Sequence record: NC_014662.1
Origin: Enterobacter phage CC31
DNA: 64,000 nucleotides
Strand: one strand, 5' to 3'
Shown here: positions 5,866 to 44,475 of the stretch, piece by piece
How positions within the stretch are numbered: the first letter of the stretch is position 1
How the letters are laid out: each line of letters opens with the position of its first letter
The notes under the pieces: model-generated
What the model saw: only the letters and a program-made list of their open reading frames with translations
Told to the model about the DNA's origin: nothing
The model's database searches: none
Made by a program: the position numbers and the translations under genes

Positions 5866-7428
5866 ATGAAAAAGATTAATCCGTTAGTAGAAAAATGGAC
5901 TCCGCTGCTTGAGAACGAAGCACTGCCTGAAATCGTTGGTGCTGGTAAAAAAGCTCTGATTGCAAAAATCATGGAAAACCAGGAATCAGCTATTAAAACT
6001 GAACCTGCATTCCGTGATGAAAAAATCGCTGAAGCATTTGGTTCGTTCCTGACTGAAGCAGAAATTGGTGGTGACCACGGTTATGATGCTCAGAACATCG
6101 CTGCTGGCCAAACCTCTGGTGCAGTAACTCAGATTGGACCAGCTGTTATGGGCATGGTACGTCGTGCAATTCCTAACCTGATTGCTTTCGACATCTGTGG
6201 TGTTCAGCCAATGAGTTCTCCTACCGGTCAGGTATTCGCTCTGCGTGCCGTTTACGGTAAAGACCCTCTGGCTGCTGGTGCTAAAGAAGCATTCCACCCA
6301 ATGTACGCTCCAGATGCAATGTTCTCTGGTCAGGGTGCTGCTGAGAAATTCGCTGCTGTAAAAGCTGCTGACGTTCTGACTGTTGGTACTATCGTAGTTC
6401 ACGATTTCGCTGATGTTGGTCGCGCTTACTTCCAGGTTGCTGAAGGTTTCACAGTAGATGCTGGTGCTACCGATGCTGAAAAACTGGATAAAGCAGTTAA
6501 AGCTGCTGAAGAAGCTGGTCAGCTGGTAGAAATCGCTGAAGGTATGGCTACCTCCGTAGCTGAACTGCAGGAAAACTTCAACGGTTCTACTGATAACCCA
6601 TGGAATGAAATGGGCTTCCGTATCGATAAACAAGTTATCGAAGCTAAATCCCGTCAGCTGAAAGCTCAGTACTCTATTGAACTGGCTCAAGATTTACGTG
6701 CTGTTCACGGTATGGACGCGGATGCTGAACTGTCTGGTATCCTGGCTACCGAAATCATGCTGGAAATCAACCGCGAAGTTGTAGATTGGATTAACTACTC
6801 TGCTCAACTGGGTAAAACCGGTATGACTCAGACTGTTGGTTCTAAAGCTGGTGTATTTGACTTCCAGGACCCAGTAGATATTCGTGGCGCTCGTTGGGCA
6901 GGTGAAAGCTTCAAAGCTCTGCTGTTCCAAATCGACAAAGAAGCTGCTGAAATCGCACGTCAGACTGGTCGTGGTGCTGGTAACTTCATCATCGCTTCTC
7001 GTAACGTAGTTAACGCTCTGGCAGCTGTTGATACTGGCGTTACTCCTGCTGCTCAGGGTCTGGGTCAAGGCTTCAATGCTGATACCACTAAGACTGTGTT
7101 CGCAGGTATTCTGGGCGGTCGTTATAAAGTATACATCGACCAGTACGCTCGTCAGGACTACTTCACCATTGGTTACAAAGGTGCTAACGAGATGGATGCT
7201 GGTATCTACTACGCTCCATACGTTGCTCTGACTCCACTGCGTGGTTCCGACCCTAAAAACTTCCAGCCAGTCATGGGCTTCAAAACCCGTTACGGTATTG
7301 GTATCAACCCGTTTGCTGATAGTGCATCACAGCAGCCGAATGCTCGCATTCAGTCTGGTATGCCTTCTATCGTCAACTCTGTTGGTAAGAACGCGTACTT
7401 CCGTCGCATCTGGGTTAAAGGTCTGTAA
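5866..7428 (+). CDS. 23: major capsid protein
   Basis: 520 aa, close match to recalled T4 gp23; followed by GNRA-loop terminator. Confidence 0.95.
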   Translation: MKKINPLVEKWTPLLENEALPEIVGAGKKALIAKIMENQESAIKTEPAFRDEKIAEAFGSFLTEAEIGGDHGYDAQNIAAGQTSGAVTQIGPAVMGMVRRAIPNLIAFDICGVQPMSSPTGQVFALRAVYGKDPLAAGAKEAFHPMYAPDAMFSGQGAAEKFAAVKAADVLTVGTIVVHDFADVGRAYFQVAEGFTVDAGATDAEKLDKAVKAAEEAGQLVEIAEGMATSVAELQENFNGSTDNPWNEMGFRIDKQVIEAKSRQLKAQYSIELAQDLRAVHGMDADAELSGILATEIMLEINREVVDWINYSAQLGKTGMTQTVGSKAGVFDFQDPVDIRGARWAGESFKALLFQIDKEAAEIARQTGRGAGNFIIASRNVVNALAAVDTGVTPAAQGLGQGFNADTTKTVFAGILGGRYKVYIDQYARQDYFTIGYKGANEMDAGIYYAPYVALTPLRGSDPKNFQPVMGFKTRYGIGINPFADSASQQPNARIQSGMPSIVNSVGKNAYFRRIWVKGL

Positions 7429-7513: not shown

Positions 7514-8797
7514 ATGGCTAACATCCATGACCTTCTGCGCGAATCAACTACAACGACGAGTTCAATTTCTGCCCGTCCTAGCCTCGTTGCATTGACTCGC
7601 GCTACTACTAAATTAATTTACTCTGATATTGTAGCTACTCAGCGTACTACTCAACCTACTGCTGCTTTCTACGGTATCAAATATTTGAACCCTAACAAAG
7701 AATTAACGTTCCTTACTGGTGCTACCTACGCAGGTCAAACTGGTACTGAGGACCGTAAATCTATTGAAACATTAACTGCTTCAAATAAAGATTCATTTGG
7801 CAAGGGTGATTTGTTCAAATACGATGACATTGTTTACAAAGTACTTGTAGATAATCCATTTGACCAGATTACTGAAACTGATTTAGAAGTTGTAATTCAG
7901 ATTTCTCTGGTTAAACTCACTACTCGTTTAATGTCTGACGCTGCTATCACTTCCAAGTTTGAAACTGCTGGAGCTGATATCGCTGAAGCTAAATTCCAAA
8001 TTGATAAATGGCAGACTCAAGTTAAATCTCGTAAACTTAAAACGAGCTTGACTGTTGAATTGGCCCAGGACCTTGAAGCTAATGGCTTTGATGCTTCCAA
8101 TTTTATCGATGATTTACTGGCTACTGAAATGGCCGATGAAATTAACAAAGACATTTTACAAAGTCTTGTGACAGTTTCAAAACGATATAAAGTTGAAGGT
8201 ATCACAGATACTGGATTCATCGATTTATCTTATGCATCTGCTCCAGAAGCTGGTCGTTCTCTGTATCGCATGGTATGCGAAATGGTTTCTCATATTCAGC
8301 GCTCAACATCCTTTACGGCAACATTCGCTGTAGCATCTACTCGTGCTGCTGCTGTTCTTGCTGCATCAGGTTGGTTGAAGCATAAACCTGAAGATGATGA
8401 TTATCTGTCACAGAACGCTTATGGTTTCCTGGCAAACGGTTTGCCTCTGTATTGCGATACTAACACTCCACTCGATTATGTAATCGTCGGTGTAGTAGAA
8501 GATATTGGTGATAAAGAAGTTGTATCGAGTATTTTCTATGCTCCATACACTGAAGGTATCGACCTTGATGACCCGGAACACGTTGGTGCATTTAAAGTAA
8601 TTGTTGACCCAGAAAGCTTACAGCCTTCTGTAGCTTTATTCGTTCGTTATGCATTGTCTGCTAACCCGTATACTGTAGCTAAAGATGAAAAGGAAGCTCG
8701 AATCATTGATGGCGGGGATATGGATAAGATGGCAGGACGTTCTGATTTATCAGTTCTTCTTGGTGTTAAGTTACCAAAAATCATCATTGAAGACTAA
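7514..8797 (+). CDS. 24: capsid vertex protein
   Basis: 427 aa, gp23 paralog at the T4 gene 24 position. Confidence 0.9.
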   Translation: MANIHDLLRESTTTTSSISARPSLVALTRATTKLIYSDIVATQRTTQPTAAFYGIKYLNPNKELTFLTGATYAGQTGTEDRKSIETLTASNKDSFGKGDLFKYDDIVYKVLVDNPFDQITETDLEVVIQISLVKLTTRLMSDAAITSKFETAGADIAEAKFQIDKWQTQVKSRKLKTSLTVELAQDLEANGFDASNFIDDLLATEMADEINKDILQSLVTVSKRYKVEGITDTGFIDLSYASAPEAGRSLYRMVCEMVSHIQRSTSFTATFAVASTRAAAVLAASGWLKHKPEDDDYLSQNAYGFLANGLPLYCDTNTPLDYVIVGVVEDIGDKEVVSSIFYAPYTEGIDLDDPEHVGAFKVIVDPESLQPSVALFVRYALSANPYTVAKDEKEARIIDGGDMDKMAGRSDLSVLLGVKLPKIIIED

Positions 8798-8803
8798 AAG
8801 AAA

Positions 8804-8826
8804 GGGAACCTCACGGTTCCCTTTTG
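8804..8826 (+). terminator. intrinsic terminator after gene 24
   Basis: GGGAACC-TCAC-GGTTCCC followed by TTTTG. Confidence 0.7.
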
Positions 8827-8829
8827 TAG

Positions 8830-9375
8830 TTATAAAGCAAATATATCGAATGTTGGTGCGTATTTTTCTTTAAATCTCTGATAGATTTCTTTCTCGTACA
8901 GATTGTAGCAAGGTATACCATGACGCTTGGCTATATCAACGGCCACTCGTGTCCCTCCAGTAACGCTAGAGAGTTTTATTGGAGCATAGAATAGTACCAT
9001 ATCCACAGGTGACTGGCAATCCTCTCCGAGCACCTGAAGTGCATTGCGGGCAAATAGAGTCTTCACTATATCCCGGCACTCATCCCAGTAGCTTGTCACT
9101 TCTCTTGCTTTAATTACACTCCTGATTCTCACTTCATTTGGAAAGTCTTTCCACACCTTTACTCCAACTCCAGTTTTAAGACCATTGAAGCCTTCGTATG
9201 GTATGATACGTAATGAACGTTCACGGTCGTATCTACTGAGCCATGATTCATCTGCACCAGGAGCACCTCCCGAATACGAAAAATGGCCTGACTCCGAAAG
9301 AGCCTGACCAGTTAATGACATGACATCTAAAACACGACGTGGCGTCTCTCGAGAACCGATTAACGCCAAACGCAT
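8830..9375 (-). CDS. conserved protein with DprA/Smf-like Rossmann (SLOG-type) motifs
   Basis: 181 aa; motifs IGSRETP ... SGGAPGADESW ... SSVTGGTRVAVDIA resemble the DprA/Smf nucleotide-binding fold; convergent with gene 24. Confidence 0.6.
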   Translation of the reverse strand: MRLALIGSRETPRRVLDVMSLTGQALSESGHFSYSGGAPGADESWLSRYDRERSLRIIPYEGFNGLKTGVGVKVWKDFPNEVRIRSVIKAREVTSYWDECRDIVKTLFARNALQVLGEDCQSPVDMVLFYAPIKLSSVTGGTRVAVDIAKRHGIPCYNLYEKEIYQRFKEKYAPTFDIFAL

Positions 9376-10379
9376 TAGTTACTTACCAGTTCAATCCAAA
9401 CTGGACGAATTACGCCTTGCACGTAATTGACAAGTTCTTTCTTGACTACATCAGGATTATCAGCGTCAGTAATGAAGATTTCTTCACGGCCAGCTTCTTC
9501 CAGAATATCCTGGACAGTAAGACCCATAACTTTACCAAAGTCCTTTGGACCAACTTGGCCAATCTTACTGATAACGTTATTGACTCGGTTCAGAGTAGCA
9601 TAAGCTGCCAGCGTAGAGAAAGCAACCTTATCAACATCAGTTAATTCAACCTTAGCTTTAATAGGCTTATCGGATTTAGCTTTCTCAGAGAACTTGGAGT
9701 TCTTGCATTTAATAGCTACGCGAGAACCATTAGGGAAAAATTTAGGGTAGCATGGTTTCAGAACGTAGCCTTCGGCGATATTACTTTCTGATACAACCGC
9801 TTGGAATGGCATAGTATTAGCTTCTTCAAGACCATGAGCTTCAATAGCTTGATTATAGCGATTAACTACAACATCCAGCATATTAGGAATTTGAATCAGG
9901 TCATCGAATTTACCACGGCCCAGAAGTGGAGCCATTTTAAACCCAAAGACGTTACACATACGTTCCATCATAAAATCATCAACGTAAGACGATTCACCTG
10001 ATTCGGTAGTCACTTTAATATCAAAGACGTAGAAGTCTTTTTCACCGTAATCAACACCCTTCTGAATTCCGCCGCCAGCAAATTCACCAAAGATTTGATA
10101 AGCTACTGTAGCACCAGTCAGTGCAGCTTGAACAGCTTTAAAGGACTCGTTATAACGACCCATGATAACCATATAGCCAAAGAAGTCTTCTGCTGGCAGA
10201 ATAGGACCAGTACGCTTGGCAGGTTGGATGCTATCTTTAGTTACGATAACAGAGAAGTTAGTGCCGTGAATTTTCTCACGCGCTACCCAAGTTTCAGAGA
10301 CATCAAAACCAGCATTACGAATACGCTCAATGAATTTACCGTTGTAGTGGTTCTCGAGCGTTGAATATTTCTCAAACAT
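9375..10379 (-). CDS. rnlB: RNA ligase 2
   Basis: 334 aa; [10 protein letters not shown] lysine-nucleotidyltransferase motif and overall match to recalled T4 Rnl2. Confidence 0.9.
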
Positions 10380-10636: not shown

Positions 10637-10750
10637 TATAATCACCATATAAATATCAATAATTAGGGAGGGTTCTATCCTTCTATCGTCAAGCGTATGT
10701 ACTAGAAAGAATCCGTGAAACCATTATACCACGCGGATTCTTTAAGCATA

Positions 10751-11332
10751 TTATAGAGGGATTACTTTATACTTCTTATTGCCACGAGCATCACGCTTAC
10801 AAACTAATTTGCACTTCATGCCGCTTGTGATAGTGTAATCTTCATCAACCTTCATCCGCATCCAGTCTAATACCATTCCAGATGGGTTCAAAGATTTTTC
10901 AACTTCAACCATAATTTTAGTGCCAGACTTATAAAACTTAGATTCTTGTTGCTCATAGTCAGATAGTGCGCGAGCAAACGCAGATGGGCTTAAGAATTTA
11001 TTATAACCGTGAGCAGCAGCCACAAATGTATTATCTAAAGCATGTTTGATATTTTTGATTACGACTGTTGCGTAACCGATGTGTTTTTCTGGATAGTGAG
11101 TCATTACAAAGTCCTCATGAACTGCGAAAGTTTTTTGATGACGAGATTTTACATCAACATTTGATAAGCGTTTACGATAAACCACTTTCTCTTTTCGTTT
11201 AGATTTAGCTTTTGCCGATTCAACTTTAGCATAATATAAAGCTGCTTCTTCGGGTTTAATACCCGCTTCTCTCGCAATTTCAATAAAACTCAATCCGCAC
11301 TCATGCTTAAAATGAATCTCAATCGGTGTCAT
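10751..11332 (-). CDS. hypothetical protein with N-terminal helix-turn-helix-like segment
   Basis: 193 aa; GLSFIEIAREAGIKPEEA resembles an HTH; lysine-rich linker. Confidence 0.65.
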   Translation of the reverse strand: MTPIEIHFKHECGLSFIEIAREAGIKPEEAALYYAKVESAKAKSKRKEKVVYRKRLSNVDVKSRHQKTFAVHEDFVMTHYPEKHIGYATVVIKNIKHALDNTFVAAAHGYNKFLSPSAFARALSDYEQQESKFYKSGTKIMVEVEKSLNPSGMVLDWMRMKVDEDYTITSGMKCKLVCKRDARGNKKYKVIPL

Positions 11333-11407: not shown

Positions 11408-12106
11408 TTAATAGATGATACCAGCTTCTAAAGCTGAACGATGAACAATACGTCCATTACGTGATTCTTGAACATCAACTTCAGGGTAGTCTTCAATCAT
11501 TTTAGCTAACGTAGCCAAATGACAGTAATAAGGAGTATCAGAAGCGGTTGCAGTTTTCCAGTCTTTACCTTCTTCAGTAAGTTTCTGAATTGCATCCATA
11601 ACCCACCAACCAGCCCAGATATAAGCACTAGAGCGATGCGGAAGTGGATGAACATAGAGAATTGGGCATTCGTCTGGAACAACTGGCTCGGCAGCTTCAA
11701 CTGTAATATTCAGCACATTTGAAGTTTTAACAGTGTCTTCGTATCCAGTTGCTTTAGCAGTTACTTCACATGTTAAAGCAACATTTCCTTCCGTTTGAGC
11801 TACTGCACTAATATCAGCCGTAGTTTCTCCGGTTGACCATTTGTAAGCAAGAGTTGCTCCTGATGGTTGACCTGTTACTCCACAGGTTGCACTATAGCTT
11901 TCACCAACTTTAACAGTTTGAGACTGAGCTGAAATAGTAACAGTAAGATTCATAACGTCATTTACTGTTAAGTTAGTAGTTGCGGTTTGAATATCGTCTG
12001 GGTCTTCACCAGCTTTAGTGGTTGAAGTAACTTTAACTACTTTAGTTCCAGCCGAGTCAGCGGTGTAATCCAAAGTATCAGTCACAGATGATTGTACTAC
12101 AACCAT
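11408..12106 (-). CDS. hoc: outer capsid decoration protein Hoc, main reading frame (232 codons)
   Basis: Ig-like repeats plus C-terminal capsid-binding block PLPHRSSAYIW.GWWVMD...YPEVDVQESRNG matching recalled T4 Hoc; the true N-terminus lies in another frame (next feature). Confidence 0.8.
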   Translation of the reverse strand: MVVVQSSVTDTLDYTADSAGTKVVKVTSTTKAGEDPDDIQTATTNLTVNDVMNLTVTISAQSQTVKVGESYSATCGVTGQPSGATLAYKWSTGETTADISAVAQTEGNVALTCEVTAKATGYEDTVKTSNVLNITVEAAEPVVPDECPILYVHPLPHRSSAYIWAGWWVMDAIQKLTEEGKDWKTATASDTPYYCHLATLAKMIEDYPEVDVQESRNGRIVHRSALEAGIIY

Positions 12107-12219
12107 TCATAAGTTATAGTTGCTCCTTCTGGCGCTCCGTTAACAGTTGCTGTAAACTGTTGTGAATCTCCAACTTTGATAGTGGGATTTAGAGGAGTTA
12201 AATCTACTGTAGTAGCCAT
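12097..12219 (-). pseudogene. hoc: hoc N-terminal fragment, 40 codons in a different frame from the main hoc ORF
   Basis: MATTVDLTPLNPTIKVGDSQQFTATVNGAPEGATITYEWL then TAG; resembles the start of Hoc Ig domain 1; frames differ by one nucleotide. Confidence 0.6.
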
Positions 12220-12252
12220 ATAATTTCCATTATTTAAGAGGGACAAGCCCTC

Positions 12253-15055: not shown

Positions 15056-15469
15056 TTAGTCGCCTGCTTCAAACCTACGCATATCAATAATGTGCTTGAT
15101 TGAAAATCCGCGAGACTTAATAGCATCCATCGCATCGCGACAGAACTCTAACAAAATTCCCCAGTATTGCAAACTTGTATCAATACGAAGAACTTCTTTA
15201 TCGGCAGACAGAACAGTCTTCATCTCAGACTTTTCATAACGGTCCATGCTGAACTCGTCACCATCACCTCTACCTGTATAGTAATCCAACTTCTGCTTTA
15301 ACGCGGACTTCTTCGAAGCCTCGATGCGAAGCATTTCTTTACGAATAGCAGACAATTTTGTCAACCACTTACCATAAAGAACTGGATTATTAGCTGCTTC
15401 ATACTGCAATTTAGTTGAATCAATAATCAAATCTTGTTTCAACTCTTCCTGTAAATCTTCAAGCTTCAT
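15056..15469 (-). CDS. uvsY: UvsY recombination mediator
   Basis: ~137 aa; LEDLQEELK...STKLQYEAANN...SLQYWGILL match recalled T4 UvsY. Confidence 0.9.
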   Translation of the reverse strand: MKLEDLQEELKQDLIIDSTKLQYEAANNPVLYGKWLTKLSAIRKEMLRIEASKKSALKQKLDYYTGRGDGDEFSMDRYEKSEMKTVLSADKEVLRIDTSLQYWGILLEFCRDAMDAIKSRGFSIKHIIDMRRFEAGD

Positions 15470-15518
15470 AATCACCTTTCTTTGTTCAATTTGTTACTCT
15501 AGCAAGGAACTCAAAACC

Positions 15519-40645: not shown

Positions 40646-42901
40646 TTAAAGCTTACATGCAGAACAATCTTCGGCTTTTGGTTTTTCGATTTCAAAATCG
40701 TCGTTACCAGAACCATCACGAGTGTTATGATAGTACAACGTCTTACCGCCAAAGTACCAGAAGTAAAGCAAGTCGTCCATCATAACAGACATTGGCACTT
40801 TACCTTTCTCATAGTTCTGAGGGTCATAGTAAGTATTAGCTGATGCAGATTGGCATACCCACTTCAACATAATAGCTACTTGAGTCAGATAAGGTTTGTT
40901 ACCCTGTTTAGCAAGTTTCCATGCATAATCATAGAGGTCAGCATTCAGTTCAACATTCGGAACTACTTGGTTGAAGCTTCCTTCTTTAGACTCTTTAATA
41001 GAGACTGGACCTCGTGGCGGCTCAATACCGTTTGTGCTGTTGGAAACCTGGGAGGAGGACTCACATGGCATGAGTGCGGACAATGTACTGTTACGGATGC
41101 CATATTGCTTGAGTTCTGCACGGAGTGCTTCCCAGTCACAAACGTAATTCGGCGCCGCGAGCTGGTCAATTCTCTTATTGTACCAGTCGATAGGTAATTC
41201 GCCTCGAGACCAACGAGTGTCTTTATAATACTCGCAAGGTCCTTTTTCTTTTGCAAGTTTAATTGATGCTTTAATGAGTGCATATTGCAGCCTTTCAAAC
41301 AGTTCATGAGTCAGGTCGTTTGCATCAGCGTATGTAGCAAAGTTATCTGCCAACCAAGCAGCATAGTTCGTTACACCAACACCCAATGCTCGGCGTTTAA
41401 GAGCTTTCAAAGCTTCTTTAACTGGATAACCTTGATAACTCAAGAGGTTGTCGAGTGCTCGGACTTGGACTTCTGCGAGTTCGTTAATAGTTTCTTGGTC
41501 TTGCCAATCGAAGTTGCCGAGCACGAACGCAGACAACGTACACAGCGCAATTTCTGCGTCTTCTGAGTAGACGTCTTTAGTAGGTAACGCAATTTCTGCG
41601 CAGAGGTTCGATTGCTTAATCGTAGCCACATCACGAATAAAAGGACCATAATCACCAACGTTATCTACGAAGTAAGGATAGATACGAGCAGTACCCGAAC
41701 GCTCAGTCAAGAACAGTTCAATTAATTCACGAGCTTTAACACGTTTCTTACGAACATCTGGGTTCTTTTCAAGAGCTTCATATTGTTCACGGAACGCAGC
41801 AGCATCTTTGAAATAGTTCTCATACAAACGACCCGCATCAATATCCGGAGAGAACAGAGTGATGTAGTCGTCTTTAATCAGACGTTCAAACATCAGGTCG
41901 TTGATTTGAACACCATAATCCAAGTGACGAATTCGGTTTTCATCTACGCCTTTGTTGTTCTTAAGTACGAGGAGGTTCTCAACTTCAAGGTGCCAGATTG
42001 GATAGTACAATGTCGCCGCGCCACCACGGACTCCGCCTTGGGAACAAGACTTAACTGCTGTTTGGATGTGTTTCCAGAAAGGAATAACTCCAGTATGCTT
42101 GACTTCTCCGAAGCCGATTTTTGAACCTTCTGCACGAATCATACCTGCGTTAATGCCGATACCAGCACGTTTAGAGATGTACTCTACAATTGATTCAGCT
42201 GATTTGTTAATTGACTTCAGTGAATCACCAGCTTCAATAACAACGCAAGAACTGAATTGACGAGTAGGAGTACGAGCACCTGCCATGATTGGAGTTGGCA
42301 GAGAAATTTTCTTAGTTGACACAGCATCATAAAAACGAATAGTGTTAACCAAGCGATTTTCACCATCATCCTGGTGCAGAGTCATACCGATGAGCATGAA
42401 TGCAAACTGAGGAGTTTCGATGATTTGACCCGTGCTGCGGTCTTTAACCAGGTATTTTTCAATGAGCTGCATTGTACCAGCATACGTCATTTCAAAATCA
42501 CGGTCATGAACAATTTTACTTTCAAGCAGAGCAATTTCTTCAGCAGACCATTTGGCAAGAACTTCTTTGTCATATTTGTTGTGATTAACACCAAATGAAA
42601 TCTGGTCAATAAATGAACGAGGCTCAAACTGCCCATAAACTTGCTTACGGAGATTGAACATCGCCAGATTACTTGCGACGTACTGATAATCTGGTTCTTC
42701 AATTGAAATCATTGAAGCTGCAACCTTAGTAGCTGCGCGTTGAATGTCATACGTCGTCATTCCATCTTGCAGATGTGGAACGATAGCTTGATATAGCTCA
42801 TATGGGTCAACTCGGGTGTTTTCACAACCCCATTCCAGAACCTTAATAAGTTTTTCTGGAGTAAATTCCTGAGAGGTACCACTGGACTTAATTACTTTCA
42901 T
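40646..42901 (-). CDS. nrdA: ribonucleotide reductase large subunit
   Basis: 751 aa class Ia RNR alpha chain at the T4 nrdA position. Confidence 0.9.
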   Translation of the reverse strand: MKVIKSSGTSQEFTPEKLIKVLEWGCENTRVDPYELYQAIVPHLQDGMTTYDIQRAATKVAASMISIEEPDYQYVASNLAMFNLRKQVYGQFEPRSFIDQISFGVNHNKYDKEVLAKWSAEEIALLESKIVHDRDFEMTYAGTMQLIEKYLVKDRSTGQIIETPQFAFMLIGMTLHQDDGENRLVNTIRFYDAVSTKKISLPTPIMAGARTPTRQFSSCVVIEAGDSLKSINKSAESIVEYISKRAGIGINAGMIRAEGSKIGFGEVKHTGVIPFWKHIQTAVKSCSQGGVRGGAATLYYPIWHLEVENLLVLKNNKGVDENRIRHLDYGVQINDLMFERLIKDDYITLFSPDIDAGRLYENYFKDAAAFREQYEALEKNPDVRKKRVKARELIELFLTERSGTARIYPYFVDNVGDYGPFIRDVATIKQSNLCAEIALPTKDVYSEDAEIALCTLSAFVLGNFDWQDQETINELAEVQVRALDNLLSYQGYPVKEALKALKRRALGVGVTNYAAWLADNFATYADANDLTHELFERLQYALIKASIKLAKEKGPCEYYKDTRWSRGELPIDWYNKRIDQLAAPNYVCDWEALRAELKQYGIRNSTLSALMPCESSSQVSNSTNGIEPPRGPVSIKESKEGSFNQVVPNVELNADLYDYAWKLAKQGNKPYLTQVAIMLKWVCQSASANTYYDPQNYEKGKVPMSVMMDDLLYFWYFGGKTLYYHNTRDGSGNDDFEIEKPKAEDCSACKL

Positions 42902-43199
42902 GCAAATCCTCTAGCGTAAATGTGTCTTTGAATAATCTGTTTACTATATGAGCTATTATATCACCATGGCAAGCTTTAGGTTTACAAGTGCATCCTAATC
43001 TCATTCCACGGAGAGTCTCCAGGTGCTCACGTTTTATTTCACCACTCCTAATACGCTTAATGAAGTCCTCTTTAAAGGCTTCAATGGCAGCCTCCCGGCT
43101 GCCAGCATTTTTACCAACGTCATTACCCCACATTGTACCTCGTTGGATATTAACGTCGAAATCGGAATGGTATTTATTAACCACTCGACAAGCTCTCAT
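42888..43199 (-). CDS. hypothetical protein with LGCTCKPKACHGD motif
   Basis: 103 aa; start overlaps nrdA by 14 nt. Confidence 0.6.
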   Translation of the reverse strand: MRACRVVNKYHSDFDVNIQRGTMWGNDVGKNAGSREAAIEAFKEDFIKRIRSGEIKREHLETLRGMRLGCTCKPKACHGDIIAHIVNRLFKDTFTLEDLHESN

Positions 43200-43429
43200 T
43201 TAACTTCCACAATAAACCATGTATCATGAATTAATTGATTAGATTCAAGTCCGAATTCTTCAAAACCGTGCGCTTTTTCGTATGCATGGACAACGTTACG
43301 AACATAGAGACGCGCTCCACGAACTTGAATAATTGAACCGACCTTTGGAATTTCAGAATCACGGATGTTATAAACTTCTGCGATAGGGTCTTCTTCATTA
43401 TTTTGAATTACAATTCTAAGATGTGGCAT
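43196..43429 (-). CDS. hypothetical protein
   Basis: 77 aa ORF. Confidence 0.55.
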   Translation of the reverse strand: MPHLRIVIQNNEEDPIAEVYNIRDSEIPKVGSIIQVRGARLYVRNVVHAYEKAHGFEEFGLESNQLIHDTWFIVEVK

Positions 43430-44475
43430 TATGCTTTACTCACAATAACAACGCGTTCAGTAGATTCACCAACAATTTCAATGTGATGAGCCAGAACTAT
43501 ATGAAAATAGCCATTAATCATAATAGAAGAGTTTAATTTGAAGTCAGCATCGCACAGTTGCTCATCAGTTTGAGCATAAACGATACTTCCCAAAGCATTT
43601 GTAAATTTAGTAATCATACAGCCATTTTTTCCTTTGATTGTTGGGTGACTTTCATAGTTAACTAACTTGAAGTCTTCGATAACAGCAAATCGGTTTATCC
43701 ACTTAAGCTGAGATGAAGTTTGCCAGCGCTCAAACTCAATTGGAAAATCAATTTCAAGATTGCAGAGTTCTTTTGGCTCTCGACGAAGAATTTCTTCGCA
43801 CTGCTCAATATGATTTGAATAAATGTGAGTGTTGCCGCCAGTAAATACCAAATGACCAGGTTTTAAGCCAGTCATTTTAGCTACGATATGAATCAAAGCA
43901 GCATACGACGCAATATTGAATGGTAGACCAAGGAATACATCTACCGACCTCTGGTACCACTGGAGGTCCAGAAGCCCATTGCGTACGTTGAACTGATATA
44001 TCATATGGCATGGTGGAAGCGCCATCTTAGGGATGTCTAGAGGGTTCCAGGCGGTCACAATTTGACGGCGGTCATTAGGTAGTTCTTTGATTCGGTTAAT
44101 AACCAAAGTCAATTGGTCAACACCCATAAAGTCTCGCCACTGCTTACCATAAACCGGACCAAGCTCGCCGTCGACATATCCCATTGAACGAGCTTGATTT
44201 TCGTAGTTGTCGTCCCAAACAGTTTTACCATTTGTCGGAGACCCATGCTGACGAAGACGCAAATCGTTTACATTCGTTGAACCGGACAAGAACCACAGAA
44301 GTTCTGCAATACATGCTTTCCAAGCAAGCTTCTTGGTAGTCACTGCTGGAAAACCTTCTTGCAAATCAAATCGTAATTGAGTACCAAACACAGCACAAGT
44401 GCCAGTTCCTGTGCGGTCGTCAGTTACATAGCCTTCATCAAAGATGTGTTGAATTAGTTGTTGATATTGTTTCAT
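43429..44475 (-). CDS. td: thymidylate synthase, intron-free; ORF as sequenced carries a 62-codon C-terminal extension
   Basis: TS motifs (ALPPCHMIYQF, DVFLGLPFNIASYA) complete through HPTIKGK at about residue 283; frame then continues to 43429, see finding. Confidence 0.85.
   Translation of the reverse strand: MKQYQQLIQHIFDEGYVTDDRTGTGTCAVFGTQLRFDLQEGFPAVTTKKLAWKACIAELLWFLSGSTNVNDLRLRQHGSPTNGKTVWDDNYENQARSMGYVDGELGPVYGKQWRDFMGVDQLTLVINRIKELPNDRRQIVTAWNPLDIPKMALPPCHMIYQFNVRNGLLDLQWYQRSVDVFLGLPFNIASYAALIHIVAKMTGLKPGHLVFTGGNTHIYSNHIEQCEEILRREPKELCNLEIDFPIEFERWQTSSQLKWINRFAVIEDFKLVNYESHPTIKGKNGCMITKFTNALGSIVYAQTDEQLCDADFKLNSSIMINGYFHIVLAHHIEIVGESTERVVIVSKA

What the first reader, a model, noticed from the sequence alone, without database searches (positions are those of the whole stretch)
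8830..9375. DprA/Smf-like (SLOG-type) Rossmann protein convergent with the capsid gene block
The 181-aa ORF has the motif pattern of the DprA/Smf nucleotide-binding domain (GSRETP..., SGGAPGADESW, SSVTGGTRVAVDIA) but is only about half the size of bacterial DprA and lacks any extra domain. It could act in recombination-mediator or nucleotide-sensing roles, and sits beside rnlB in a region that also carries RNA repair functions.
Basis: inference. Interest (0 to 1): 0.45.

Follow-up and report, generated by a model that had tools for sequence, protein, structure and literature searches.

The report
Small phage DprA-like nucleotide-binding protein
A real 181-residue phage gene encodes a stand-alone Rossmann-type (SLOG) nucleotide-binding domain most like the core of bacterial DprA; it belongs to a widespread, already catalogued but never tested phage family whose fusion partners and neighbours point to NAD/ADP-ribose counter-defence more than to recombination.

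Summary
The window is an Aeromonas phage PS49-like T4 relative. The gene lies between capsid vertex gene 24 and RNA ligase 2 (rnlB). Its ATG overlaps the rnlB stop by one base. T4 has no gene at this spot.

It is not a bona fide DprA. It scores below the Pfam threshold, has no SAM or C-terminal domain, and lacks the region that follows the core in DprA. The phage already encodes UvsY.

Across the family, fusion partners are Macro, NADAR, DUF4326, other SLOG domains and one SF1 helicase. Neighbours recurrently include NAMPT/NARP1, Macro, NADAR and DUF4326. The same window carries a stand-alone DUF4326 gene.

Best reading (about 0.45): a ligand-binding module of the phage NAD/ADP-ribose network. 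The main rival is a single-stranded nucleic-acid binder (about 0.25). This is a new member of a known, uncharacterised kind.

The parts
8830..9375 (-). 181-aa stand-alone SLOG (DprA-like clade) Rossmann protein; PHROG 768
9375..10379 (-). rnlB (RNA ligase 2), directly upstream on the same strand; its stop overlaps the SLOG ATG by 1 nt (TAATG)
   Evidence: Pfam RNA_ligase plus T4_Rnl2_C; phmmer against T4 RnlB gives 4.7e-147; the junction was read.
8801..8824 (.). G+C-rich hairpin between the convergent gene 24 and the SLOG gene; terminator-like on both strands
   Evidence: The terminator scan found a 10-bp stem followed by a T run on the minus strand. On the plus strand the same hairpin is followed by TTTTGT. 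Function is inferred.
7514..8797 (+). gene 24 (capsid vertex protein), the convergent neighbour that marks the conserved insertion site of this gene in T4-like phages
   Evidence: phmmer against T4 gp24 gives 3.7e-229. The same arrangement is seen in PM2, phiAS5 and G2494. T4 has only 29 bp between gene 24 and rnlB.
42888..43199 (-). stand-alone DUF4326 protein (103 aa) in the td-nrdA gene string; candidate functional partner, because DUF4326 is the commonest fusion partner of this SLOG family
   Evidence: Pfam DUF4326 at E 1.5e-20, 74 bits against a cut-off of 25; ORF layout; fusions P0138, P0177 and P0185 and 5 of 147 representatives. The partnership is inferred.

Best explanation
The ORF encodes a stand-alone viral SLOG domain of the DprA-like branch (PHROG 768). 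It is a single Rossmann-type domain that keeps the family's conserved polar residues: the G-S-R loop after strand 1, GGAPGAD after strand 2, the R110-N111-x-x-Q114 helix, and G-G-T142 after strand 4. It most likely binds, and possibly processes, a ribose-phosphate ligand of the ADP-ribose/NAD type. That ligand could be a free ADPR derivative or an ADP-ribose adduct on nucleic acid. On this reading it works as one module of the phage's NAD/ADP-ribose counter-defence and salvage network, together with DUF4326 (encoded separately in this genome) and, in other phages, with Macro, NADAR and NAMPT/NARP1 enzymes. It is not a RecA/UvsX-loading DprA. Shown: the fold, the homology, the conserved residues, the fusions and the neighbourhoods. 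Inferred: the ligand class, binding versus catalysis, and the counter-defence role. In this phage it is probably co-transcribed and translationally coupled with RNA ligase 2.
For: Fusions: among 147 family representatives, the fused domains are DUF4326 (5), NADAR (3), YAcAr SLOG (3), Macro (1) and SF1 helicase (1). Example architectures are Macro-SLOG (P0122), NADAR-SLOG (P0137), SLOG-DUF4326 (P0138, P0185) and SLOG+YAcAr+LDcluster4+NADAR (P0065, P0070). Two plasmid homologues are annotated as macro-domain proteins.

Neighbourhoods: a Prs-like gene, a 128-aa ORF and a NAMPT-like gene (the NARP1 gene pair) are followed by the SLOG gene with a 4-nt overlap (NARP1 definition from 10.1101/2024.02.11.579819). 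In Pseudomonas phage TIETA a NAMPT gene and a Macro 'phosphatase' lie upstream. In Slopekvirus a NAMPT gene lies 1.3 kb downstream. In a T5-like Vibrio phage the gene sits between the two NAD-ligase subunits. A cREC and a PnuC gene are nearby in another contig.

Statistics: in 76 IMG/VR loci forming 19 identity groups, 7 groups have a Macro, NADAR, DUF4326 or NAMPT gene within 3 kb. Tallying each of the 19 groups once per 1-kb distance bin gives 9 hits at 0-3 kb against 1 at 3-6 kb.

This genome: the window encodes a stand-alone DUF4326.

Conserved residues: D42, R110 and G141 are invariant, and R9, N111, T142 and Q114 nearly so, in 147 sequences with about 35% identity to the query.

Literature: Iyer et al. 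2022 (PMC9503650) predicted from the same kinds of fusion that viral SLOG domains act on ADPr derivatives. NARP1 operons are known to recruit accessory enzymes that funnel ADPR-1''P or cADPR into ADPR. The phage already has UvsY.
Confidence: 0.45

Rival explanations
1. It is a minimal DprA-type single-stranded nucleic-acid binder. The conserved residues would grip ssDNA (or ssRNA) as in H. pylori DprA and ShosA. The protein would protect or hand over single strands during phage recombination, replication or repair, or would target fused Macro/NADAR hydrolases and helicases to damaged or ADP-ribosylated single strands.
Against: Pfam DprA is below threshold. There is no SAM or C-terminal domain. 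The alignment to DprA ends at the last core strand, and only about 20 residues (one helix) follow, so the stretch after the core in the solved DprAs has no counterpart. That this stretch carries the dimerisation and RecA-binding determinants of pneumococcal DprA is from my recollection. The third DprA arginine is Asp147 here. The phage encodes UvsY. The commonest partners are ADPr-handling domains and NAD salvage genes.
Confidence: 0.25
2. It is a dedicated partner of RNA ligase 2 in RNA (tRNA) repair. It would recognise or prepare an RNA end, or deal with a nucleotide by-product of ligation.
For: The ORF is translationally coupled to rnlB in this phage. rnlB lies within 3 kb in 30 of 76 IMG/VR loci, in 4 of 19 groups. 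It is adjacent or nearly so in Karamvirus (this window), Bragavirus and Slopekvirus and underlies the match in the Klebsiella phages. A Thg1-like tRNA repair enzyme lies 1 kb upstream in an unrelated contig.
Against: All rnlB cases are T4-like phages, which share gene order, and in T4 rnlB sits at the same place without this gene. In Krischvirus and phiAS5 the gene stays next to gene 24 and no rnlB lies within 3 kb. Outside the T4-like phages its neighbours are PhoH, RNR, ThyA, NAMPT and ligase genes. The one 'Rnl2-SLOG fusion' (P0024) is an in-frame deletion that removes the first two SLOG motifs.
Confidence: 0.1
3. It is a LOG-type nucleotide N-glycosidase (phosphoribohydrolase) that cleaves AMP or a modified nucleotide as part of phage nucleotide metabolism.
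Against: By my motif register (G-G-T142-x-x-A145 set against LOG P-G-G-x-G-T-x-x-E, a motif I recall rather than tested), the position of the LOG catalytic Glu is Ala in 137/147 family members and never Asp or Glu. No structural superposition was inspected. Pfam and NCBIfam give no LOG hit. DprA is the closer relative.
Confidence: 0.08

Closest known systems
DprA/Smf Rossmann core (R. palustris 3MAJ, H. pylori 4LJK/4LJR, S. pneumoniae 3UQZ; Pfam PF02481)
   Different: About half the size. No N-terminal SAM domain and no C-terminal domain. The stretch that follows the core in DprA is absent. The Pfam score is below threshold. The third arginine is Asp here. The partner domains are Macro, NADAR and DUF4326. 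The family is essentially confined to phages (1359 phage records against 25 plasmids).
ShosA/PsyrA, the DprA-like antitoxin of the ShosTA defence system (8ZVA, 9VZO)
   Different: ShosA has a SAM domain and an extra C-terminal helix, forms a dimer, binds RecA and is paired with a PRTase toxin (PMC12961424). None of these features is present here.
Viral SLOG domains described by Iyer, Burroughs, Anantharaman and Aravind 2022 (PMC9503650) and the jumbo-phage 'DprA/Smf' of Iyer et al. 2021 (PMC7824862)
   Same: Stand-alone phage SLOG proteins whose relatives are fused to Macro, NADAR, DUF4326 and SF1 helicase domains. This is the same pattern found here.
   Different: Those papers give predictions only (degradation or sensing of ADPr derivatives, or an extra ssDNA binder). 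They place most viral SLOG domains in the YpsA-like clade, whereas this family scores closest to DprA.
ORF83 of coliphage DruSM1 (YAcAr/YspA SLOG, PF10686), whose deletion lowers plating on an Avs type III host
   Same: A small stand-alone phage SLOG protein with G-x-R, GDxxGxD, R-N and GGxGT motifs. It is the only phage SLOG protein with a genetic phenotype that I found.
   Different: It belongs to a different family. ORF83 is PF10686 (E 1.6e-18) and PHROG 289. It gives no significant profile match to this family (hhalign probability 0.2%) and no hit with the family HMM.
LOG / PpnN phosphoribohydrolases and the ThsA SLOG 3'cADPR sensor
Accessory enzymes of phage NARP1 operons (Macro-domain Adpp; RyDEP)
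   Same: These are genes recruited next to Adps/Namat to feed ADPR derivatives into NAD+ resynthesis. This SLOG gene occupies such a position in at least one NARP1-type operon and lies near NAMPT-like genes in three other lineages.
   Different: Their folds are unrelated. Their activities are demonstrated, whereas this family's activity is not. PS49 shows no NARP genes in the window.

Membership tests
SLOG superfamily (Smf/DprA-LOG Rossmannoid domains) | Three-layer alpha/beta Rossmann-like fold with a parallel sheet | tested here: met
SLOG superfamily (Smf/DprA-LOG Rossmannoid domains) | Conserved Gly-rich or polar loops after strand 1, after strand 2 (GGxxGxD/E) and after strand 4 (GG[ST]) | tested here: met
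   G7-S8-R9, S35-G-G-A-P-G-A-D42 and G140-G141-T142 are invariant or nearly so in 38 and in 147 sequences.
PHROG 768 ('DprA-like DNA recombination-mediator protein') | Full-length match to the family profile | tested here: met
   E 1.7e-57, 195 bits, residues 2-174 on profile positions 5-181 of 191. The name is an annotation, not a tested function.
DprA/Smf (Pfam PF02481 DNA_processg_A) | Score at or above the curated Pfam gathering threshold | tested here: not met
   13.8 bits against a cut-off of 29.6, covering residues 3-43 only. Of 147 representatives, 93 match at E <= 0.01. In the individual scans only one of 17 reached the cut-off (P0152, 32.8 bits).
DprA/Smf (Pfam PF02481 DNA_processg_A) | Homologous Rossmann core with the G-S/T-R, SGxAxGID, RNR and SGS motifs | tested here: met
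   hhalign of the family alignment against a five-sequence DprA/ShosA alignment gives probability 88%, E 2.9e-6 and 143 aligned columns, with the motifs in register.
DprA/Smf (Pfam PF02481 DNA_processg_A) | Arginines required for ssDNA binding (HpDprA R52, R143, R170; ShosA R139, R234, R261) | tested here: inconclusive
   R9 and R110, which sit in the aligned G-S/T-R and R-N motifs, are conserved (144/147 and 147/147). The third position is Asp147 here and Arg in 42/147. ShosA R261E kept its function. The residue correspondence is by motif, not by a checked numbering map.
DprA/Smf (Pfam PF02481 DNA_processg_A) | Multidomain architecture: N-terminal SAM domain, with or without a C-terminal winged-helix (DML1-like) domain | tested here: not met
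   At 181 aa, strand 1 starts at residue 2 and the model is a single domain. E. coli Smf is 374 aa, with the core at about residues 100-290.
DprA/Smf (Pfam PF02481 DNA_processg_A) | C-terminal extension of the core, which carries the dimerisation and RecA-binding surface | tested here: not met
   The alignment to DprA ends at the strand equivalent to 'VFALPG'. Only about 20 residues follow (one helix, with lower pLDDT), whereas the solved DprAs continue beyond that strand. Identification of the surface residues rests on my recollection of the pneumococcal DprA study.
DprA/Smf (Pfam PF02481 DNA_processg_A) | Binds ssDNA and loads RecA during transformation | not testable with these tools
   This needs EMSA and RecA or UvsX filament assays.
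LOG phosphoribohydrolases | PGGxGTxxE motif with a catalytic Glu | tested here: not met
   With G-G-T142-x-x-A145 set against the LOG motif (my register, motif recalled), the Glu position is Ala145: Ala in 137/147, otherwise Gly, Ser or Thr, and never Asp or Glu. There is no Pfam or NCBIfam LOG hit.
YAcAr/YspA SLOG (Pfam PF10686; includes DruSM1 ORF83) | Match to PF10686, or a profile relationship to ORF83 | tested here: not met
   No PF10686 hit for the ORF. hhalign of the family against ORF83 gives probability 0.2%. The family HMM finds nothing in the DruSM1 locus.
ThsA-type SLOG sensors of cyclic ADPR | Ligand pocket that binds 3'cADPR | not tested

The most novel reading that the evidence does not exclude
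PHROG 768 would not be a recombination mediator at all. It would be a further accessory module of phage NAD+/ADP-ribose counter-defence, working with DUF4326. The pair would capture or convert a non-canonical ADPR-derived product of bacterial immunity, or an ADP-ribose adduct on nucleic acid, so that it can be neutralised or fed to NAD+ resynthesis. Macro-Adpp and RyDEP already do this for NARP1 operons. On this reading the widespread database label 'DprA-like DNA recombination-mediator protein' is wrong for more than a thousand phage genomes.
Probability: 0.35. Interest if true: 0.65.

Novelty: new member of a known kind. Interest (0 to 1): 0.38.

Why it matters
The gene itself is ordinary in one sense. 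It belongs to a family already catalogued in PHROGs and noted in comparative-genomics surveys. What matters is the label. The family is present in at least 1359 sequenced phages of many lineages, and is annotated as a recombination mediator purely by fold resemblance. The evidence assembled here shows that it lacks the DprA parts outside the core. It also shows that it keeps company with Macro, NADAR, DUF4326 and NAMPT/NARP1 genes. If it acts on ADP-ribose-type ligands, it would add a new fold to the known phage tools against NAD-based immunity, and it would give the uncharacterised DUF4326 domain a testable partner. If instead it binds single strands, it would be the smallest known DprA-type DNA binder. 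Either answer is reachable with simple binding assays.

Tried and rejected
1. I suspected that DruSM1 ORF83 (a 'Smf/DprA' protein with an anti-Avs3 deletion phenotype) was a homologue that would give this family an experimental phenotype. I located the gene in PP596835.1 (NGRRMQZB_95; its residues R89, N90, T112 and D114 match the EVADES description). It is a YAcAr (PF10686) protein with no significant profile relationship to this family. Phages 9g and Seurat carry no homologue either.

2. I considered the Silas et al. accessory-gene screen as the source of 'ORF83'. It is not. Gao et al. 2022 could not be retrieved.

3. I tested rnlB adjacency as a functional link. It is limited to T4-like synteny and is absent in Krischvirus, phiAS5 and Acj9. 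The apparent Rnl2-SLOG fusion P0024 is an in-frame deletion lacking the first two SLOG motifs.

4. LOG-type catalysis looks unlikely, because the position I align with the catalytic Glu is Ala.

5. Sequence searches of the PDB give only marginal N-terminal hits. NCBIfam gives nothing.

6. Two preprints on phage sponges and signal manipulators do not mention SLOG or DprA.

7. A search of the window for NAMPT, Prs-like, Macro and NADAR genes found none. An initial 'DUF4326' hit on the SLOG ORF itself was an artefact, because a fusion protein was included in my query alignment.

Full report
**Observation.** GSRETP is at residues 7-12, SGGAPGADESW at 35-45 and SSVTGGTRVAVDIA at 136-149. The protein is 100% identical to a 'hypothetical protein' of Aeromonas phage PS49 (Straboviridae, Tevenvirinae, Karamvirus), so the window is a T4-like phage.

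**Locus anatomy.** The gene is convergent with gene 23 (5866..7428) and gene 24 (7514..8797). A G+C-rich hairpin at 8801-8824, terminator-like in both directions, lies between them. Directly upstream on the same strand is rnlB (9375..10379; Pfam RNA_ligase plus T4_Rnl2_C; 4.7e-147 to T4 RnlB). The rnlB stop and the ORF's start share one base (TAATG), which suggests co-transcription and translational coupling. Base composition is like that of the neighbouring genes. In T4, gene 24 and rnlB are separated by only 29 bp, and the syntenic 18 kb holds no homologue. Relative to T4, this gene is therefore an insertion at the 24/rnlB junction.

**Fold and family.** Pfam gives only a sub-threshold N-terminal match to DNA_processg_A (13.8 bits against a cut-off of 29.6; residues 3-43). 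NCBIfam gives nothing, and PADLOC gives a weak PsyrA/ShosA hit. PHROGs gives a full-length match to phrog_768, 'DprA-like DNA recombination-mediator protein' (E 1.7e-57).

The family is large. tblastn finds it in 1359 of 50,697 phage records (Klebsiella, Pseudomonas, Escherichia, Vibrio, Aeromonas, Acinetobacter and others). An exhaustive HMMER scan finds 2889 clusters at 50% identity. Only 25 of 72,556 plasmids carry it.

A profile comparison of the family with a small DprA/ShosA alignment, which I assembled from E. coli Smf and the PDB alignments, gives 88% probability (E 2.9e-6) over 143 columns. The motif pairs are GSR/G[ST]R, SGGAPGAD/SGLARGID, RN/RRNR and GGT/SGS, all in register. In BFVD the closest predicted structures (TM 0.65-0.86) are uncharacterised phage proteins. 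The YAcAr/YspA proteins of phages and giant viruses are distinctly further away (TM about 0.45).

**Is it a DprA?** No, not in the family sense.
- It fails the Pfam threshold.
- It is a single domain with no SAM domain and no C-terminal winged helix.
- Its alignment to DprA stops at the last core strand. Only one helix follows, where the solved DprAs continue. From my recollection of the S. pneumoniae work, that continuation carries the dimerisation and RecA-binding surface.
- HpDprA R52, R143 and R170 (ShosA R139, R234, R261) are the arginines reported as required for ssDNA binding (PMC12961424). R9 and R110 sit in the aligned G-S/T-R and R-N motifs and are essentially invariant (144/147 and 147/147). 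The position aligned with the third arginine is Asp147 in this protein and Arg in only 42/147.
- The phage encodes its own mediator, UvsY (15059-15493), and UvsW nearby.

The position that I align by motif register with the LOG catalytic Glu (PGGxGTxxE) is Ala145. It is Ala in 137/147 members and never acidic. This argues against LOG-type N-glycosidase chemistry.

**What the family keeps company with.** Scanning 147 diverse representatives and the longer members against Pfam showed the fused domains: DUF4326 (5), NADAR (3), YAcAr SLOG (3), Macro (1) and an SF1 helicase (1). The architectures include:
- Macro-SLOG (P0122);
- NADAR-SLOG (P0137);
- SLOG-DUF4326 (P0138, P0185);
- DUF4326-SLOG (P0177);
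- giant proteins with this SLOG plus YAcAr, LDcluster4 and NADAR (P0065, P0070).

Two plasmid homologues are annotated as macro-domain proteins.

Gene neighbourhoods in annotated phages fall into two sets. In T4-like phages the gene sits beside gene 24 in Karamvirus, Bragavirus, Krischvirus and Chrysonvirus. rnlB is adjacent only in this window, PM2 and Slopekvirus. Elsewhere its neighbours are:
- PhoH and RNR genes (CR3, LAh_8);
- RNR or early genes in N4-like phages;
- ThyA and DNA polymerase;
- the two NAD-dependent ligase subunits on either side, in a T5-like Vibrio phage;
- NAMPT plus a Macro 'phosphatase' in a PAK_P1-like Pseudomonas phage;
- NAMPT 1.3 kb downstream in Slopekvirus.

In metagenomic contigs one homologue follows, with a 4-nt overlap, a Prs-like gene and a NAMPT-like gene. 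That gene pair defines NARP1 (Adps/Namat; 10.1101/2024.02.11.579819). Others lie next to a DUF4406 (deoxyribosyltransferase-like) gene and near Thg1, or near cREC and PnuC genes.

I then took 80 IMG/VR loci, called genes, grouped the loci by at least 50% SLOG identity (19 groups) and searched the flanks with iterated profiles. Seven of the 19 groups have a Macro, NADAR, DUF4326 or NAMPT gene within 3 kb. Tallying each group once per 1-kb distance bin gives 3, 4, 2, 0, 0 and 1 hits, that is 9 in the near half against 1 in the far half. The numbers are small, the sample favours relatives of the query, and there is no genome-wide background. The decay with distance and the spread over unrelated lineages nevertheless agree with the fusions.

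The window itself encodes a stand-alone DUF4326 protein (42888-43199, minus strand; E 1.5e-20) in the td-nrdA gene string. No NAMPT, Prs-like, Macro or NADAR gene was detected in the window.

**Literature.** Iyer et al. 2021 noted a 'DprA/Smf' SLOG protein in jumbo phages as a possible extra ssDNA binder. Iyer et al. 2022 described viral SLOG domains fused to Macro, NADAR and DUF4326. They predicted that these domains sense or degrade ADPr derivatives, and stated that they are experimentally uncharacterised. Recent work shows that NARP1 operons recruit accessory enzymes that convert ADPR-1''P (Macro Adpp) or 2'/3'cADPR (RyDEP) into ADPR. This gives a concrete precedent for what a NARP-associated ligand-binding module might do.

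The one phage 'Smf/DprA' protein with a phenotype is DruSM1 ORF83, whose deletion reduces plating on an Avs type III host. I traced it to PP596835.1. It is a YAcAr (PF10686) protein unrelated at profile level to this family, so its phenotype cannot be transferred.

**Mechanism.**
- *Shown:* a real, conserved, phage-restricted, single-domain SLOG protein of the DprA-like branch. Its conserved polar residues (S8, R9, D42, R110, N111, Q114, T142) are strictly kept. The catalytic acid of LOG appears to be absent, as is everything in DprA outside the core.
- *Inferred, best explanation (about 0.45):* it binds, and perhaps processes, a ribose-phosphate ligand of the ADP-ribose/NAD class, either free or as an adduct on nucleic acid. 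It would act as a module of the phage NAD/ADPr counter-defence network with DUF4326, and elsewhere with Macro, NADAR and NARP enzymes.
- *Main rival (about 0.25):* it is a minimal DprA-type single-strand binder. The conserved arginines, ligase, helicase and polymerase contexts and two plasmid neighbourhoods (RdgC, SRAP) support this. Macro and NADAR fusions are also compatible with targeting ADP-ribosylated ssDNA.
- *Lesser rivals:* an Rnl2 partner in RNA repair (about 0.1) and a LOG-like glycosidase (under 0.1).

**Novelty and verdict.** The gene is a new member of a known, catalogued but untested family. Interest is moderate, and comes from two points. First, the database label 'recombination mediator' is probably wrong for a family found in more than a thousand phages. 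Second, simple binding assays, ideally together with the co-encoded DUF4326 protein, would settle the question.

Noticed in passing
window 42888-43199 (-): A stand-alone DUF4326 protein (103 aa; Pfam E 1.5e-20) is wedged between a 77-aa ORF downstream of td and nrdA, with overlapping stops and starts. DUF4326 has no known function and is the commonest fusion partner of the SLOG family studied here.
   Followed up: partly
window 43429-44475 (-): The thymidylate synthase ORF is 348 aa. It appears to run about 60 residues beyond the usual ThyA C-terminus (after '...HPTIKG'). This could be an extension, a fusion or an intron-related read-through.
   Followed up: no
window 11408-12252 (-): The Hoc-like head decoration gene matches T4 Hoc in two adjacent ORFs (11411-12106 and 12100-12252). 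This suggests a frameshift, a split gene or programmed frameshifting.
   Followed up: no
window 10715-10755 (-): Upstream of the 86-aa ORF that precedes rnlB there is ATGCTTAA followed 14 nt later by TATAAT, which resembles a T4 middle (MotA-box) promoter. It is embedded in an imperfect hairpin (GAATCCGCG...CACGGATTC plus TTTCT) that could terminate the upstream 193-aa gene. No late-promoter TATAAATA lies on this strand nearby.
   Followed up: partly
P0024 (299 aa; NCBI-derived, 100-kb contig): In a relative of the Klebsiella T4-like phages, an in-frame deletion joins a truncated Rnl2 to residues 62-181 of the SLOG protein. The GSR and GGAPGAD motifs are lost. This indicates either that both genes are dispensable in that lineage or that there is an assembly artefact.
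   Followed up: partly
L028 1379-4540 (ENA contig_38776): A NARP1-type operon (Prs-like gene, unknown 128-aa ORF, NAMPT-like gene) is followed by a SLOG homologue with a 4-nt overlap. The 128-aa ORF has no Pfam match and could be another accessory factor.
   Followed up: no
L015 (Vibrio phage Cilsick) 1354-4473: In this T5-like phage the SLOG homologue and two small ORFs sit between the two subunits of the split NAD-dependent DNA ligase.
   Followed up: no
window 10751-11332 (-): This 193-aa protein has an N-terminal DUF2774 domain (E 1e-20, with weak similarity to T4 gp24.3) and a C-terminal phrog_7636 part. It looks like a fusion of two small T4-type ORFs of unknown function.
   Followed up: no
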